From Escherichia coli (GTDB taxonomy: Bacteria; Pseudomonadota; Gammaproteobacteria; Enterobacterales; Enterobacteriaceae), in assembly GCF_003334305.1 (NCBI RefSeq), contig NZ_QOWS01000025.1: DNA of 64,000 nucleotides; one strand, written 5' to 3'. The position numbers and the translations under genes are program-made. The first letter of the stretch is position 1. The number at the start of each line of letters is the position of its first letter. The notes beneath the pieces are model-generated. The model saw nothing but the letters and a program-made list of their open reading frames with translations. It did not search any database and had not been told where the DNA came from. Shown here piece by piece: positions 54,088 through 61,148 of the stretch.

Positions 54088-55344
54088 ATGCTCCATCCGC
54101 GAGCCAGAACCATGTTGTTATTATCGCTCCCCGCCGTGGCAATTGGGATTGCGTCCAGTCTTATTCTGATTGTGGTGATGAAAATCGCCTCGGCATTACA
54201 GAATTTGCTCTGGCAACGACTGCCGGGAACTCTGGGGATAGCCCAGGATTCACCCCTCTGGATCATCGGTGTATTAACGCTAACGGGTATTGCGGTGGGG
54301 TTGGTTATCCGTTTCAGCCAGGGTCATGCCGGACCAGACCCCGCCTGTGAACCGCTGATCGGCGCACCGGTTCCGCCCTCTGCGCTACCAGGACTTATCG
54401 TAGCATTAATTCTTGGTCTTGCTGGTGGCGTCAGCCTGGGGCCAGAACATCCGATCATGACCGTCAATATCGCCCTTGCGGTTGCCATTGGCGCTCGTCT
54501 GTTACCGCGCGTCAACCGAATGGAGTGGACTATTTTAGCCTCTGCCGGAACCATCGGCGCGCTGTTTGGCACACCTGTTGCGGCGGCGTTGATATTTTCG
54601 CAAACCTTAAATGGCAGTAGTGAAGTTCCGCTATGGGATCGTCTCTTTGCGCCGTTAATGGCGGCAGCAGCTGGTGCACTTACTACCGGATTATTTTTCC
54701 ATCCTCATTTTTCACTGCCCATTGCGCATTACGGACAGATGGAAATGACCGATATTCTCAGCGGTGCAATTGTCGCGGCGATTGCCATCGCAGCAGGGAT
54801 GGTCGCCGTATGGTGCTTACCACGGTTGCACTCAATGATGCATCAAATGAAAAATCCGGTGCTCGTGCTGGGTATTGGCGGATTTATTCTCGGTATTCTG
54901 GGGGTTATTGGTGGACCAGTTTCGCTGTTTAAAGGGCTGGATGAGATGCAGCAGATGGTGGCAAATCAGGCTTTCAGCACCAGCGATTACTTTTTGCTGG
55001 CGGTAATTAAACTTGCCGCCCTGGTCGTTGCTGCCGCCAGTGGCTTTCGCGGTGGGCGAATCTTCCCGGCAGTGTTTGTCGGCGTGGCATTAGGGTTGAT
55101 GCTGCATGAGCACGTTCCCGCCGTACCAGCGGCAATAACCGTTTCTTGCGCTATTCTCGGCATCGTGCTGGTGGTAACACGCGATGGCTGGTTAAGTCTT
55201 TTTATGGCGGCAGTCGTTGTACCCAATACCACATTGCTACCGCTGCTCTGTATCGTCATGCTTCCGGCATGGCTGTTATTAGCAGGTAAGCCGATGATGA
55301 TGGTCAATCGTCCGAAGCAACAGCCACCCCACGATAACGTTTAG
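54088..55344 (+). CDS. yfeO: ClC-family-like putative ion-transport membrane protein YfeO
   Basis: 418-aa polytopic membrane ORF rich in G/A/L helices. Confidence 0.9.
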
Positions 55345-55458: not shown

Positions 55459-55785
55459 ATGTTCAGGTCACTGTTTCTGGCGGCCGCCCTGATGGCATTT
55501 ACCCCGCTTGTAGCAAACGCAGGTGAAATCACCCTACTGCCATCAATCAAATTACAAATTGGCGATCGCGATCATTACGGTAATTACTGGGACGGTGGTC
55601 ACTGGCGCGACCGTGACTACTGGCATCGCAATTATGAATGGCGTAAAAACCGCTGGTGGCGTCATGATAATGGCTATCATCGTGGCTGGGATAAGCGTAA
55701 AGCGTATGAGCGTGGCTATCGTGAAGGCTGGCGCGATCGTGACGATCATCGCGGAAAAGGCCGCGGACATGGACACCGCCATTAA
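55459..55785 (+). CDS. ypeC: secreted DUF2502-family protein YpeC (basic, Trp/Arg/His-rich)
   Basis: 108-aa ORF with signal peptide ([21 protein letters not shown]) followed by a low-complexity W/R/H/D/Y-rich mature region. Confidence 0.8.
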
Positions 55786-55925: not shown

Positions 55926-57173
<1,248 letters not shown>

Positions 57174-57176
57174 CTA

Positions 57177-57198
57177 AAACATAGCCTTTGCTATGTTT
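57177..57198. promoter_or_regulatory. MntR operator (palindrome AAACATAGC-N4-GCTATGTTT)
   Basis: Perfect 9-bp inverted repeat with 4-bp spacer immediately upstream of the mntH ribosome-binding site. Confidence 0.55.
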
Positions 57199-57213
57199 CA
57201 TGCTATGCCAAAC

Positions 57214-57234
57214 GAGAATGATTATCAAATTCAT
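57214..57234. promoter_or_regulatory. Fur box upstream of mntH
   Basis: Minus-strand GATAATCATTCTC matches the Fur consensus core GATAATCATTATC with one mismatch. Confidence 0.5.
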
Positions 57235-57499
57235 TTAAATGGGTTGTGGTGATTTCTCTGATAGACCTGGATTATGACTACGAAAAGATTGATGACTTGA
57301 ATGTTATGGTTATGTTTAATGTTAGCACATTTACATAACTTTCAGCTTCCATACACAACATAGCAGAAATGTATGACAGATCACTATTTTTGAAGCTTGT
57401 CACAGGACGTCATTATAGTGTGTGTCAGATCTCGTTTTCCTTAACCATGTTACATAGAATGTGCACGGAAATTTAACCTGCCTCATATTTGGAGCAAAT

Positions 57500-58702
57500 A
57501 TGGACCGCGTCCTTCATTTTGTACTGGCACTTGCCGTTGTTGCGATTCTCGCACTGCTGGTAAGCAGCGACCGCAAAAAAATTCGTATCCGTTATGTTAT
57601 TCAACTACTTGTTATCGAAGTGTTACTGGCGTGGTTCTTCCTGAACTCCGACGTTGGTTTAGGCTTCGTGAAAGGCTTCTCCGAAATGTTCGAAAAACTG
57701 CTCGGATTTGCCAACGAAGGGACTAACTTCGTCTTTGGTAGCATGAATGATCAAGGCCTGGCATTCTTCTTCCTGAAAGTGCTGTGCCCAATCGTCTTTA
57801 TCTCTGCACTGATCGGTATTCTCCAGCACATTCGCGTGTTGCCGGTGATCATCCGCGCAATTGGTTTCCTGCTCTCCAAAGTCAACGGCATGGGCAAACT
57901 GGAATCCTTTAACGCCGTCAGCTCCCTGATTCTGGGTCAGTCTGAAAACTTTATTGCCTATAAAGATATCCTCGGCAAAATCTCCCGTAATCGTATGTAC
58001 ACCATGGCTGCCACGGCAATGTCCACCGTGTCGATGTCCATCGTTGGTGCATACATGACCATGCTGGAACCGAAATACGTCGTTGCTGCGCTGGTACTGA
58101 ACATGTTCAGCACCTTTATCGTGCTGTCGCTGATCAATCCTTACCGTGTTGATGCCAGTGAAGAAAACATCCAGATGTCCAACCTGCACGAAGGTCAGAG
58201 CTTCTTCGAAATGCTGGGTGAATACATTCTGGCAGGTTTCAAAGTTGCCATTATCGTTGCCGCGATGCTGATCGGCTTTATCGCCCTGATCGCCGCGCTG
58301 AACGCACTGTTTGCCACCGTTACTGGCTGGTTTGGCTACAGCATCTCCTTCCAGGGCATCCTGGGCTACATCTTCTATCCGATTGCATGGGTGATGGGTG
58401 TTCCTTCCAGTGAAGCACTGCAAGTGGGCAGTATCATGGCGACCAAACTGGTTTCCAACGAGTTCGTTGCGATGATGGATCTGCAGAAAATTGCTTCCAC
58501 GCTCTCTCCGCGTGCTGAAGGCATCATCTCTGTGTTCCTGGTTTCCTTCGCTAACTTCTCTTCAATCGGGATTATCGCAGGTGCAGTTAAAGGCCTGAAT
58601 GAAGAGCAAGGTAACGTGGTTTCTCGCTTCGGTCTGAAGCTGGTTTACGGCTCTACCCTGGTGAGTGTGCTGTCTGCGTCAATCGCAGCACTGGTGCTGT
58701 AA
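57500..58702 (+). CDS. nupC: concentrative nucleoside:H+ symporter NupC
   Basis: CNT family; start set at Met [14 protein letters not shown] with GGAG upstream, giving 400 aa. Confidence 0.95.
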
Positions 58703-58711
58703 GACCATACA

Positions 58712-58745
58712 TAAAAAAGCCGGGGATAATTCCCCGGTTTTTTTA
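58712..58745. terminator. bidirectional terminator between convergent nupC and pdeA
   Basis: AAAAAAGCCGGGGA-taat-TCCCCGGTTTTTTTT: GC stem with A-run and T-run on either side. Confidence 0.65.
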
Positions 58746-58751
58746 CGCCTG

Positions 58752-60941
58752 TTAATCAGCTAATGGCTGCGGGCGACCAATCAAATACCCTTGCAGATAT
58801 TGCACCCCGAGCTTATGCAATAGCGCCTGCTGCTGTTGCGTCTCGACAAACTCCGCGACCACACTCAATGACTTCGCTTTCGCCAGATCGGTAATTGATC
58901 TCACAATCATCGCATCCAGCGTGTTCGTGACAATATCTTTCACAAAGACGCCATCAATTTTGATGATATCAGCCTGCAAACGCTTTAACCGTTCGTAGTT
59001 GGCATATCCGGTGCCAAAGTCATCAATCGCAATCCGGAAACCAAACTTATGCAGCTGCTCGATGTTGTACATGCTGCTTTCTGCGTTAGAAAACGCCTGC
59101 TCCTCGGTGATCTCAAGAATGACCGCCTGCGGGGAGATGTGATAACGCTTAAACAGACGAATAATCCGCCCGGCAATATTCTTTTGCAGCAGCGTGAGCG
59201 GCATTAAATTGACTGAAAAGCGCGGTCCTTTTTTGTCGCAAGGGTGTGTTGCCAGCCACTTCAACAAGGATTCCAGCACTTGCAAATCAAAACGCGCGCT
59301 AAGGTTAAACTGAGCAATAAGGGGCAGAAACTTATCCGGGGTCATAATGCCGCCGTCATATTTCAGTCGCGCGAGGATCTCATCATAACCTTCACCCTCT
59401 TTGTTGCGAATTGGCTGGGCGTAGAGCAGCAAATCACCCTGATCTAACGCCGTGCGAATGGTATTCAGCAATAGCACCTGTTTAGTGGTCTGCCCGGAAA
59501 CCATCTCCTCTCTGCTATCCAGCGCCAGCACATGATGATGTGCGCAGGATTGCTCCGCCAGCCAGCTTAACTGCCCCAACAAGGGTTGCAGGGTTTCCTG
59601 ATTTCCATCAAAACGCCCCCAGGCAGCACCATAGCCCATATCCAGCCCGGTATTGTTCCAGTGAATTTGCCGACTATTCAGGATGTTAATCATATGCTGG
59701 AGTCGCCCTTCCGTTTCCGGCCCGCTCAGCACTAACAGCAGTTCACTACCCGGCAATTGATACAACTTTTCGTTTTCCTGCATCAACGGCAGCAGCGTAC
59801 GGCAAATTGAGCGGATACAGTGAACGCGCATCATTAAGCCGTAATGACGACTCATAAACTCAAGATTATCAATGCGCAGGCAGCAAAAACTCTTGCCCGC
59901 CTCTTGTTCCGGCGCTTGTTCCAACGCACGAAAGTTGGGTAGGAGCGTTAACGGATCTGTCAGCGCCTGCAAATGCCAGCGGCGATTAAGCCATTCACTG
60001 CGATGATAAATGCGCACCATATAGAGCAGGCAAACGCTAAAGGAAATCAGCACCGCAAGAATAAATGCCAGCGAATATTCGGTTTCCACCCCTTGCAAAA
60101 AGTTCTGGTTGTAATTCAGCAGGCAAAGCGTTGAAACAGCCCAGGTGAGATTTAAAAACGGATAGCGAAGCTTACCGACCCCGAGGGTAAAGATGATGAA
60201 GAAAACGGGTACCAAGTAACCGGCAATAAAGTCGTTTTCATAAGGTGTGCACAACAGAAGTAGCAGCACGCTTAACGCTGCCAGCCAGCTTAAGGTAAAT
60301 GCGCGTTTCTCTTTGCCCAACGACGGAGCGATATCCCTGCGCCACAATATCTGCGCAAAGTGGGGACTTACAATCATGCGAGTGAGATAGTAGAAAAGCA
60401 TGTTGTAAATCAGCACAGCGGTGAAAAGGCTTAGCAAATCAACGACCGTGAAAATGGCATCCGCATCGCCGAAAAAGGTGGATATCTTTAGCGGGAAATC
60501 AAAGAAGCTCCCCACAAGATACATGCTGCATTTGATGCCGATCGGCGTCACCAAACCAAGCCAGAACAGACGTTGCCAGACATATCGGCTGGTCAATCCA
60601 TAACGCCAACGCGTCCCCAGCTGCCAGCGTAATATTGCGCAGGCACACAACACGACAAACGTCTGGCTACCGAGCATGACCGCAGTCTGTAAAAAAGAGA
60701 GATGAAAGTTCCACAGATTGGTGCAAAACATCCCGCATAAAACGGGAACGACACCGCGCCAGCCAAAGATAAACAAGATTGACAGCATTACGCACAGTGG
60801 CATCCACGCCAGAAAGATATAACTGGAATGGATAATGGCAAGTGGCGAAATAAAACGGGATAGCTGAATAAGTACCACGGTGAGCGTAAACGCTAGTGTG
60901 AATATCTTGATATTTTTTATCAGGTTATGCTCCACAAACAT
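58752..60941 (-). CDS. pdeA: c-di-GMP phosphodiesterase PdeA (YfeA): MASE1 membrane domain, degenerate GGDEF, EAL
   Basis: N-terminal multi-TM MASE1 region and C-terminal EAL domain (EITEEQAF, DDFGTGYANYERLKRL); start at internal Met gives 729 aa. Confidence 0.9.
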   Translation of the reverse strand: MFVEHNLIKNIKIFTLAFTLTVVLIQLSRFISPLAIIHSSYIFLAWMPLCVMLSILFIFGWRGVVPVLCGMFCTNLWNFHLSFLQTAVMLGSQTFVVLCACAILRWQLGTRWRYGLTSRYVWQRLFWLGLVTPIGIKCSMYLVGSFFDFPLKISTFFGDADAIFTVVDLLSLFTAVLIYNMLFYYLTRMIVSPHFAQILWRRDIAPSLGKEKRAFTLSWLAALSVLLLLLCTPYENDFIAGYLVPVFFIIFTLGVGKLRYPFLNLTWAVSTLCLLNYNQNFLQGVETEYSLAFILAVLISFSVCLLYMVRIYHRSEWLNRRWHLQALTDPLTLLPNFRALEQAPEQEAGKSFCCLRIDNLEFMSRHYGLMMRVHCIRSICRTLLPLMQENEKLYQLPGSELLLVLSGPETEGRLQHMINILNSRQIHWNNTGLDMGYGAAWGRFDGNQETLQPLLGQLSWLAEQSCAHHHVLALDSREEMVSGQTTKQVLLLNTIRTALDQGDLLLYAQPIRNKEGEGYDEILARLKYDGGIMTPDKFLPLIAQFNLSARFDLQVLESLLKWLATHPCDKKGPRFSVNLMPLTLLQKNIAGRIIRLFKRYHISPQAVILEITEEQAFSNAESSMYNIEQLHKFGFRIAIDDFGTGYANYERLKRLQADIIKIDGVFVKDIVTNTLDAMIVRSITDLAKAKSLSVVAEFVETQQQQALLHKLGVQYLQGYLIGRPQPLAD

Positions 60942-61148
60942 GAGTACACTACTCTCACTGATCGGGGTTTTCAGGCACACAAATAATAAGTTTATTCGCA
61001 TCGCGAAGCAAACAGGGGCCAGCCTGTTGCCGATTTTTCATCCAATGATGCTTTCACCAGGCGGCGCTAACCCGGACGTAGACTGTATTACAAAAGCGGC
61101 AAAAAGCAGAGACAAAAAACCCCCGCTTTGCAGCGAGGGTTGGAAATT

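What the first reader, a model, noticed from the sequence alone, without database searches (positions are those of the whole stretch)
57177..57234. Adjacent MntR and Fur operators in the mntH control region
A perfect MntR-type palindrome (AAACATAGC-N4-GCTATGTTT) sits next to the ribosome-binding site and a Fur box lies about 20 bp further upstream, consistent with dual Mn/Fe repression of mntH. Both sites are intact in this strain.
Basis: partly seen in the sequence, partly recalled or inferred. Interest (0 to 1): 0.3.

Follow-up and report, generated by a model that had tools for sequence, protein, structure and literature searches.

The report
Known mntH promoter: MntR, Fur, OxyR sites

Summary
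A perfect palindrome AAACATAGC-N4-GCTATGTTT lies at 57177-57198, 2 nt upstream of the mntH Shine-Dalgarno (mntH is on the minus strand, 57164..55926). A Fur-like box (GAATTTGATAATCATTCTC, 15/19 to consensus) lies at 57214-57232, over the predicted -35. The gap between the two sites is 15 bp, not about 20.

The window is E. coli. This stretch is base-for-base identical to K-12 MG1655 from -74 to +24 of the mntH ATG. Dual repression by Mn-MntR and Fe-Fur was described in K-12.

Phylogenetic footprinting across 80 other Enterobacteriaceae species shows conservation islands on the palindrome (0.95), the -10 (0.93) and the Fur core (0.99). The spacer between them scores 0.57 and far-upstream DNA 0.31. 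The same ATAGC-N4-GCTAT core sits at the mntS and mntP promoters.

RefSeq also annotates a 29-codon ORF, ypeD, lying over both operators.

An RNA-hairpin reading is disfavoured: 60 of 81 sequences break a stem pair and none compensates.

Verdict: real, intact, functional by strong inference, and already known. Interest is low.

The parts
55926..57164 (-). mntH coding sequence (NRAMP-type Mn2+/H+ importer, 412 aa), the regulated gene
   Evidence: ORF list. NCBIfam NF001923 'Mn(2+) uptake NRAMP transporter MntH', 622.6 bits against a cut-off of 430. RefSeq annotates mntH at the same place in strain 503025 and in MG1655.
57171..57174 (-). Shine-Dalgarno GAGG, 6 nt before the ATG
   Evidence: Read directly from the sequence. 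Identity across 81 enterobacterial sequences is 0.98.
57177..57198 (.). MntR operator: perfect palindrome AAACATAGC-AAAG-GCTATGTTT (minus-strand reading), about -5 to +17 relative to the predicted transcription start
   Evidence: Unique in the window, 0.02 expected. The core ATAGC-N4-GCTAT is also unique in the window and is shared with sites at mntS and mntP in MG1655. It sits at the same place in all 80 other species. The upstream arm, the spacer and GCTAT are invariant apart from one spacer change in one species. Mean identity is 0.95.
57200..57205 (-). Predicted -10 hexamer TAGCAT; this implies a transcription start near 57192-57195 (not measured)
   Evidence: Promoter scan: TTGATA-17-TAGCAT, 9 of 12. 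Identity across species is 0.93, and the spacer stays at 16-17 nt.
57214..57232 (-). Fur box GAATTTGATAATCATTCTC (15/19). It contains the 7-1-7 element TGATAATCATTCTCG (57227..57213) and the predicted -35 TTGATA (57228..57223).
   Evidence: The core TTGATAATCATTC has identity 0.99 across 81 sequences. It matches the Fur cluster at -56 of mntH in PMC2189734. mntH is in the direct Fur regulon (PMC7157518).
57239..57275 (-).
   Evidence: Only hit in the window at 4 mismatches or fewer. This is not significant window-wide (3.2 expected). In the intergenic region p is about 0.02. The central CTATCAGAGAAATCA is about 0.9-1.0 conserved; the whole site averages 0.64. Reviews report an OxyR site and H2O2 induction of mntH (PMC8632737, PMC4207228).

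Best explanation
This is the canonical sigma-70 promoter-operator region of E. coli mntH.

Shown by the sequence and the comparisons:
- A promoter-like TTGATA-17-TAGCAT sits 36-64 nt upstream of the mntH ATG.
- A Fur box covers the -35 hexamer.
- A 9-N4-9 palindrome covers the predicted start site and early transcribed region, up to 2 nt from the Shine-Dalgarno.
- An OxyR-type tetranucleotide array abuts the -35 on the upstream side.
- All of these are conservation islands in otherwise diverged DNA.

Inferred from established knowledge of these regulators and from the K-12 literature:
- When Fe2+ is plentiful, Fe2+-Fur dimers occupy the Fur box and occlude the -35.
- When Mn2+ is plentiful, the Mn2+-MntR dimer (DtxR family) occupies the palindrome. 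It blocks RNA polymerase at open-complex formation or promoter escape.
- The two repressors act independently.
- Oxidised OxyR bound upstream recruits RNA polymerase during H2O2 stress.
- The importer is therefore made only when Mn is needed (low Fe, low Mn, peroxide).

The sites in this window are identical to those of K-12, so the same behaviour is expected here.
For: - Sequence and uniqueness.
- Promoter hexamers.
- Local significance: Fur p about 0.006; no MntR-type match in 5000 shuffles.
- Footprint across 80 species, as identity: MntR box 0.95, -10 0.93, Fur core 0.99, inter-site spacer 0.57, upstream 0.31.
- Within-E. coli variation falls between the sites, not in them.
- The 36-nt stretch of RBS, palindrome and -10 is identical in 5207 of 5426 records.
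- Related palindromes with the same ATAGC-N4-GCTAT core occur at mntS and mntP.
- mntR is present in 5422 of 5426 complete E. coli genomes.
- The region is identical to MG1655 from -74 to +24.
- Literature: PMC8632737 (separate MntR, Fur and OxyR sites; independent repression), PMC3852070, PMC9315381, PMC4207228, PMC2189734 (Fur cluster at -56), PMC7157518 (direct Fur regulon).
Against: - No binding or expression data can be generated here.
- The transcription start is predicted, not measured.
- The Fur-consensus match alone is not significant window-wide (21% of shuffles). The OxyR match is also not significant window-wide.
- The primary experimental papers (Patzer & Hantke 2001; Kehres 2002; Waters 2011) are not in the held library, so their content is cited through reviews.
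- One plasmid reporter study saw no fluorescence at all from a PmntH-egfp fusion (PMC9806134). That is uninformative rather than contradictory.
- mntR and fur lie outside this window, so their presence in this particular genome is inferred from the species.
Confidence: 0.93

Rival explanations
1. RNA-level element. The transcribed palindrome forms a terminator-like hairpin (AAACAUAGC-AAAG-GCUAUGUUU followed by U). This would attenuate mntH transcription in response to Mn2+, as claimed for the Salmonella mntH leader (Shi, Zhao & Kong 2014, as summarised in reviews). It could act instead of, or in addition to, MntR binding.
For: The full hairpin is stable (-12.4 kcal/mol, z = -6.0). [quoted passage not shown] No other hairpin lies between the promoter and the ATG.
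Against: - Any perfect palindrome gives a stable hairpin automatically.
- With the predicted -10, the start falls inside the upstream arm. Only a 5-bp stem would then be transcribed (-3.9 kcal/mol, z = -0.9).
- Across 81 sequences, 60 have a C.A mismatch at pair 4 and 13 an A.C mismatch at pair 2. There are no compensatory changes, while both arm sequences are otherwise conserved.
- It fails the intrinsic-terminator scan.
- No Rfam family matches the region.
- The same core recurs at the mntS start and far upstream of mntP, where a leader hairpin makes no sense.
Confidence: 0.1
2. The conservation reflects protein coding. The annotated small ORF ypeD (57234..57145, 29 aa) spans both sites, and purifying selection on YpeD would keep the sequence constant.
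For: RefSeq annotates ypeD (b4819) here. A ribosome-profiling study detected its translation and cited Salmonella and Citrobacter 'homologues' as evidence of function (bioRxiv 10.1101/2021.07.02.450978). The ATG is present in most species.
Against: - The ORF is cut to 8 codons by a TAA in other E. coli lineages (PMV-1, E41-1) and in some other Escherichia.
- It is 8, 11, 23, 24, 25, 29 or 31 codons long, and frame-shifted, across genera. About half of the species have an 11-codon ORF that ends before the palindrome.
- Conservation follows the operator boundaries, not codon phase.
- NCBIfam has no matching family.
Confidence: 0.03
3. Chance. An AT-rich intergenic region happens to contain a palindrome and a Fur-like string.
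For: The intergenic region is 35% G+C. The Fur consensus at 4 mismatches or fewer appears in 21% of shuffled windows. Perfect 9-bp inverted repeats are not rare in the window.
Against: There were zero MntR-type matches in 5000 local shuffles, and 0.56% of local shuffles gave a Fur match. Both sites keep the same position in 80 species while the flanks diverge.
Confidence: 0.01

Closest known systems
E. coli K-12 mntH promoter (MntR box plus Fur box; Patzer & Hantke 2001; Kehres et al. 2000/2002, as cited in PMC8632737)
   Same: The sequence is identical from -74 to +24 of the ATG. The gene and its neighbours are the same: yfeO, ypeC, mntH, ypeD, nupC, pdeA.
   Different: There are two substitutions in the OxyR-like site's variable spacers (57268 and 57243). 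The window also lacks the IS186C copy that MG1655 carries between nupC and pdeA. Neither difference touches the operators.
MntR sites of the E. coli mntS (rybA) and mntP promoters
   Same: They share the core ATAGC-N4-GCTAT and A/T-rich outer positions: AGATATAGCacagGCTATATTA at the rybA 5' end, and GAATTTAGCcaaaGCTATGTTT and AGACATAGCttagGCTATATTA upstream of mntP.
   Different: The mntH site is the only perfect 9+9 palindrome; the others differ from it at 3-4 of 18 positions. The mntP sites lie far upstream (about -380 to -420 from the ATG). According to the literature they activate rather than repress.
Salmonella enterica mntH promoter (OxyR, Fur and MntR motifs; Kehres et al. 2002, as cited in PMC9315381)
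   Same: The palindrome has the same sequence and the same position, 12 nt before the ATG. The Fur box is at the same offset (loci L012, L013).
   Different: The Salmonella Fur box is GCACTTGATAATCATTATC, closer to consensus in its 3' half. The upstream OxyR region is diverged.
Bacillus subtilis MntR / DtxR-family operators
   Same: Metal-dependent dimeric repressor binding an inverted repeat that overlaps the promoter of an Mn-uptake gene (established knowledge; PMC8632737).
   Different: The proteins are only about 30% similar (PMC8632737), and the recognition sequence was not compared here.

Membership tests
Enterobacterial MntR operator | Inverted repeat of the type found at other MntR-regulon promoters (core ATAGC-N4-GCTAT with A/T-rich outer arms) | tested here: met
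   Perfect AAACATAGC-N4-GCTATGTTT. The same core occurs at the mntS start and twice upstream of mntP in MG1655. The core occurs only once in the 64-kb window.
Enterobacterial MntR operator | Position compatible with repression: overlapping the core promoter or start site of a Mn-uptake gene | tested here: met
   It lies between the predicted -10 (57200-57205) and the Shine-Dalgarno (57171-57174) of mntH. The transcription start itself is predicted, not measured.
Enterobacterial MntR operator | Conserved as a footprint in related genomes | tested here: met
   Present at the same offset in 80 of 80 other species. Identity is 0.95 against 0.31 for upstream DNA.
Enterobacterial MntR operator | The regulator gene mntR is present in the organism | tested here: inconclusive
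   mntR is not in this window. At species level it is in 5422 of 5426 complete E. coli genomes.
Enterobacterial MntR operator | Mn2+-dependent MntR binding and mntR-dependent Mn repression | not testable with these tools
   Reported for K-12 by the literature summarised in PMC8632737, PMC3852070 and PMC4207228. The K-12 sequence is identical here.
Fur box | Match to the 19-bp consensus GATAATGATAATCATTATC, or to the 7-1-7 element | tested here: met
   15 of 19 for the 19-mer; 13 of 15 for the 7-1-7 element TGATAATCATTCTCG. The local p is about 0.006, but the match is not significant window-wide.
Fur box | Overlaps the -35/-10 of an iron-repressed promoter | tested here: met
   It contains the predicted -35 TTGATA.
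Fur box | Conservation across species | tested here: met
   The core TTGATAATCATTC has identity 0.99 in 81 sequences.
Fur box | Fur occupancy in vivo or in vitro | not testable with these tools
   [quoted passage not shown] An information-theory Fur cluster lies at -56, 19.9 bits (PMC2189734).
OxyR binding site | ATAG-N7-CTAT-N7-ATAG-N7-CTAT array adjacent to the -35 | tested here: inconclusive
   12 of 16 positions at 57239-57275. The local p is about 0.02, but 3.2 such matches are expected per window. The central part is strongly conserved and the outer parts are not.
yybP-ykoY or any other Rfam Mn2+ riboswitch / cis-regulatory RNA | Match to a curated covariance model | tested here: not met
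   No credible hit in 57100-57560 even at E up to 10.
Intrinsic (Rho-independent) terminator / attenuator | G+C-rich stem followed by a U-run, with base pairing maintained in evolution | tested here: not met
   Nothing was found by the terminator scan. Pairs 2 and 4 are broken without compensation in 13 and 60 of 81 sequences respectively.

The most novel reading that the evidence does not exclude
The 22-bp palindrome may work at two levels. It would be the MntR operator on DNA. On longer transcripts that start upstream of the main promoter, it would also be an RNA hairpin. Such transcripts must exist if the ypeD ATG at 57234 is really translated, because that ATG lies upstream of the predicted -35. 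The hairpin sits inside the ypeD reading frame, 2 nt from the mntH Shine-Dalgarno. Translation of the upstream ORF, or Mn2+-dependent stabilisation of the hairpin, could then tune mntH expression independently of MntR. That would account for the residual Mn2+ repression reported in Salmonella mntR mutants. It might also account for the otherwise unexplained invariance of the AAAG spacer.
Probability: 0.06. Interest if true: 0.4.

Novelty: already known. Interest (0 to 1): 0.08.

Why it matters
It adds nothing new biologically. It confirms that this E. coli strain carries the standard, undamaged Mn/Fe/peroxide control circuit for its manganese importer. The cross-species footprint is a clean textbook example of operators standing out from diverged intergenic DNA. 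Its one modestly useful by-product concerns ypeD, the recently annotated small protein gene. The 'conservation' of ypeD is better explained by the operators it overlaps than by selection on a protein.

Tried and rejected
1. Fur consensus search at 3 mismatches or fewer found nothing. The site has 4 mismatches and was found with a script.

2. Rfam at E up to 10 over 57100-57560 gave only noise, such as eukaryotic snoRNA and miRNA models. No riboswitch is recognised.

3. The terminator scan found none.

4. A search at 3 mismatches or fewer for the mntH palindrome in the mntS-mntR region found nothing. The mntS site appears only at 4 mismatches or through the core pattern.

5. I tried to read the primary papers: Patzer & Hantke 2001 (PMC99535), Kehres 2002 (PMC135095), Waters 2011 (PMC3194919) and Shi 2014 (PMC4036272). 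None is held. Their content is cited only as reviews report it.

6. A literature search for the palindrome string and for a mapped mntH transcription start gave nothing usable.

7. I considered using Yersinia as a natural negative control. It has mntH but no MntR according to PMC3852070. The single genome-contig scan returned only the 80 closest species, none of them Yersinia. I judged a 13-CPU-hour protein search unjustified for an already-known feature.

8. Palindromicity as such was rejected as evidence, because 23 perfect 9-bp inverted repeats occur in the window.

Full report
**Where we are.** The window is Escherichia coli chromosome. The 336-bp stretch 57165-57500 is present in 5425 of 5426 complete E. 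coli genomes. It is 100% identical to strain 503025. Local gene order is yfeO (54088-55344, +), ypeC (55459-55785, +), mntH (57164..55926, minus strand), nupC (about 57501-58702, +) and pdeA (61001..58752, minus). The 412-aa product of the minus-strand ORF scores 622.6 bits against NCBIfam NF001923, 'Mn(2+) uptake NRAMP transporter MntH', whose cut-off is 430. Because mntH is on the minus strand, 'upstream' means higher coordinates.

**Checking the observation.** Read on the coding strand, the region is ...ccATTTAAATGAATTTGATAATCATTCTCGTTTGGCATAGCATGAAACATAGCAAAGGCTATGTTTTAGAGGCACAAGATG.

- The palindrome AAACATAGC-N4-GCTATGTTT occupies exactly 57177-57198 and is perfect.
- It is the only match in the window even with 3 mismatches allowed, where 0.02 are expected.
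- No match arose in 5000 dinucleotide-preserving shuffles of the intergenic region.
- It ends 2 nt before the Shine-Dalgarno GAGG (57174..57171). The ATG follows 6 nt later.
- Palindromicity alone is not special. The window has two perfect 9-N4-9 inverted repeats and 23 with spacers of 0-10 nt, mostly terminator-like.

The Fur-like box is GAATTTGATAATCATTCTC at 57232..57214. It matches 15 of 19 consensus positions. With 4 mismatches it escaped the 3-mismatch search, but it is the only site in the window at 4 mismatches or fewer. It contains a 7-1-7 element, TGATAATCATTCTCG. On its own the match is weak evidence at the scale of the window, since 21% of shuffled windows give one. Locally only 0.56% of shuffles of the 336-bp intergenic region do.

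**Promoter anatomy.** The consensus scan finds one promoter-like site on the mntH strand: TTGATA (57228..57223), 17 nt, TAGCAT (57205..57200).

- The -35 lies inside the Fur box.
- The -10 ends one base before the palindrome.
- This predicts a transcription start near 57192-57195.
- On that prediction the palindrome spans about -5 to +17 and the Fur box about -39 to -21.
- The start site is an inference. I found no held paper that reports it.

Immediately upstream of the -35 I noticed ATAa-N7-CTAT-N7-ATca-N7-CcAT at 57275..57239. This matches 12 of the 16 specified positions of the OxyR motif. It is not significant window-wide (3.2 expected) and is modestly unusual locally (p about 0.02).

**Evidence from related sequences.** One scan of species-representative genomes with the MntH protein returned 80 loci. 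They come from Escherichia, Citrobacter, Salmonella, Enterobacter, Klebsiella, Raoultella, Buttiauxella, Kosakonia, Atlantibacter and others, at 89-99% protein identity.

- In every locus the palindrome is present 9-13 nt before the ATG. The one exception has a duplicated ribosome-binding region.
- A Fur-like box lies at about the same offset, roughly 45-50 nt before the ATG, in nearly all loci.
- An alignment of the upstream 170 nt shows discrete conservation islands:

| Segment | Mean identity |
|---|---|
| MntR palindrome | 0.95 |
| Palindrome upstream arm and AAAG spacer | 1.00 |
| -10 hexamer | 0.93 |
| Fur core TTGATAATCATTC | 0.99 |
| Shine-Dalgarno | 0.98 |
| Stretch between Fur box and -10 | 0.57 |
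| OxyR-like site overall | 0.64 |
| OxyR central CTATCAGAGAAATCA | about 0.9-1.0 |
| DNA further upstream | 0.31 |

Within E. coli the same pattern holds. Divergent strains differ between the sites (TCGTTTGGCAT against TCATTTAACGT) and in the OxyR spacers, but never in the palindrome or the Fur core. The 36-nt stretch of RBS, palindrome and -10 is identical in 5207 of 5426 records.

**Is the palindrome an MntR site?** I took the MG1655 regions of the two other genes that the literature places under MntR control.

- At the annotated 5' end of rybA/mntS there is AGATATAGCacagGCTATATTA.
- Upstream of mntP there are GAATTTAGCcaaaGCTATGTTT and AGACATAGCttagGCTATATTA.
- All share the core ATAGC-N4-GCTAT with the mntH site. 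That core occurs only once in the 64-kb window.
- The regulator gene mntR is in 5422 of 5426 complete E. coli genomes. It lies outside this window.
- From -74 to +24 the window is identical to MG1655, the strain in which the regulation was worked out.

**What the literature says (as held).**

- Reviews state that E. coli mntH is repressed by both Fur and MntR, that the two act independently, and that the promoter has separate MntR, Fur and OxyR sites (PMC8632737; also PMC3852070; PMC9315381).
- A RegulonDB curation paper lists MntR and Fur as repressors and OxyR as activator of mntH (PMC4207228).
- Chen et al. 2007 predicted a two-site Fur cluster at -56 of mntH, 19.9 bits (PMC2189734). Position -56 is window coordinate 57220, inside the box found here.
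- The primary papers could not be opened.

**Mechanism.** The shown parts are the sequence anatomy, the footprints and the motif sharing. The rest is inferred.

- Fe2+-Fur occludes the -35.
- The Mn2+-MntR dimer sits across the start site and blocks initiation or escape.
- Oxidised OxyR abutting the -35 activates transcription under H2O2.
- Together these restrict MntH synthesis to conditions in which manganese must replace iron.

**Rival: an RNA element.** Reviews relay a claim (Shi et al. 2014) that the Salmonella mntH leader forms a Mn2+-responsive terminator-like structure, also present in E. coli. The only hairpin available between promoter and ATG is the transcript of this palindrome.

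- The full hairpin folds at -12.4 kcal/mol, but any perfect palindrome would do the same.
- With the predicted start, only a 5-bp stem is transcribed (-3.9 kcal/mol, z = -0.9).
- The structure fails the terminator scan.
- Rfam has no match.
- Evolution does not preserve the pairing. Only 21 of 81 sequences are perfect palindromes, 60 have a C.A mismatch at pair 4, 13 have A.C at pair 2, and none has a compensatory change.
- I therefore rate an RNA role as a minor possibility, perhaps additive. It depends on the true start site.

**Rival: coding constraint.** RefSeq annotates a 29-codon ORF, ypeD (57234..57145), that begins just upstream of the Fur 19-mer, runs through both operators and ends 20 nt inside mntH. 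It came from a ribosome-profiling study that cited Salmonella and Citrobacter 'homologues' as evidence of function.

- The ORF is cut to 8 codons by a TAA in other E. coli lineages and in some other Escherichia.
- Across genera it is 8-31 codons long, in shifting frames. About half of the species have an 11-codon version that stops before the palindrome.
- The conserved 'MNLIIIL' is simply the Fur box translated.
- Coding constraint therefore does not explain the footprint. Rather, the footprint explains the apparent protein conservation.

**Comparison, novelty and verdict.** The feature is the known mntH promoter-operator region and meets every membership criterion that can be tested in silico. 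It is not novel. The amendments are a 15-bp gap, a third (OxyR) site, an overlapping annotated small ORF, and the fact that 'perfect' symmetry is confined to Escherichia, Citrobacter, Salmonella and Kluyvera. Interest is 0.08. The most novel reading left open is dual DNA/RNA use of the palindrome, coupled to ypeD translation from an upstream transcript. I give that about 6% probability.

Noticed in passing
window 57145-57234 (minus strand): RefSeq annotates a 29-aa small protein YpeD (b4819 in MG1655). Its ORF starts just upstream of the Fur 19-mer, runs through the -10 and the MntR palindrome, and ends 20 nt inside mntH. Its ATG lies upstream of the predicted mntH -35, so translation would need a transcript from a further-upstream start. 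The ORF is truncated by a TAA in B2-type E. coli (PMV-1, E41-1) and is 8-31 codons long, in shifting frames, across 80 species. Its reported 'conservation' is best explained by the overlapping operators.
   Followed up: yes
window 57239-57275 (minus strand): An OxyR-type array ATAa-N7-CTAT-N7-ATca-N7-CcAT (12 of 16) abuts the -35 of mntH, and its centre CTATCAGAGAAATCA is strongly conserved across genera. It is consistent with the H2O2 induction of mntH described in the literature.
   Followed up: partly
window 57186-57189 and 57190-57198: The 4-nt spacer AAAG of the palindrome and the whole upstream arm are invariant in 81 enterobacterial sequences, apart from one spacer change. All variation is in the downstream arm (G to A at pair 4, T to C at pair 2). 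A repressor dimer alone would not obviously require an invariant spacer. Overlap with the transcription start is a possible reason, but it is untested.
   Followed up: partly
window 57206-57213: The short stretch between the Fur box and the -10 is a hot spot of variation within E. coli (TCGTTTGGCAT against TCATTTAACGT). About 1300 of 5426 genomes are only 90-95% identical over the 116 bp upstream of mntH. The whole 336-bp intergenic region is more uniform.
   Followed up: partly
window 58703-58751: nupC and pdeA (yfeA) are separated by only about 50 bp here. MG1655 carries an IS186C insertion (insL3) between them, so the window comes from a strain without that insertion.
   Followed up: partly
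window 57390-57419 (+ strand): A promoter-like TTGAAG-18-TATAGT points towards nupC, the divergent neighbour. The rest of the 336-bp intergenic region (35% G+C) was not analysed for the nupC regulatory sites.
   Followed up: no
L029 (Trabulsiella odontotermitis TbOT1.10), about 1-45 nt upstream of mntH: A tandem duplication of about 16 nt covers the ribosome-binding region (CAGAGGCAGAATATTTCAGAGGCAGAAAATG). This places the palindrome 28 nt rather than 12 nt from the ATG.
   Followed up: no
window 57199-57209 (minus strand): The motif CATAGC occurs a third time, as a direct repeat (ggCATAGCatgaaaCATAGC) overlapping the predicted -10. It could be an extra MntR half-site, or simply the -10 hexamer.
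   Followed up: no
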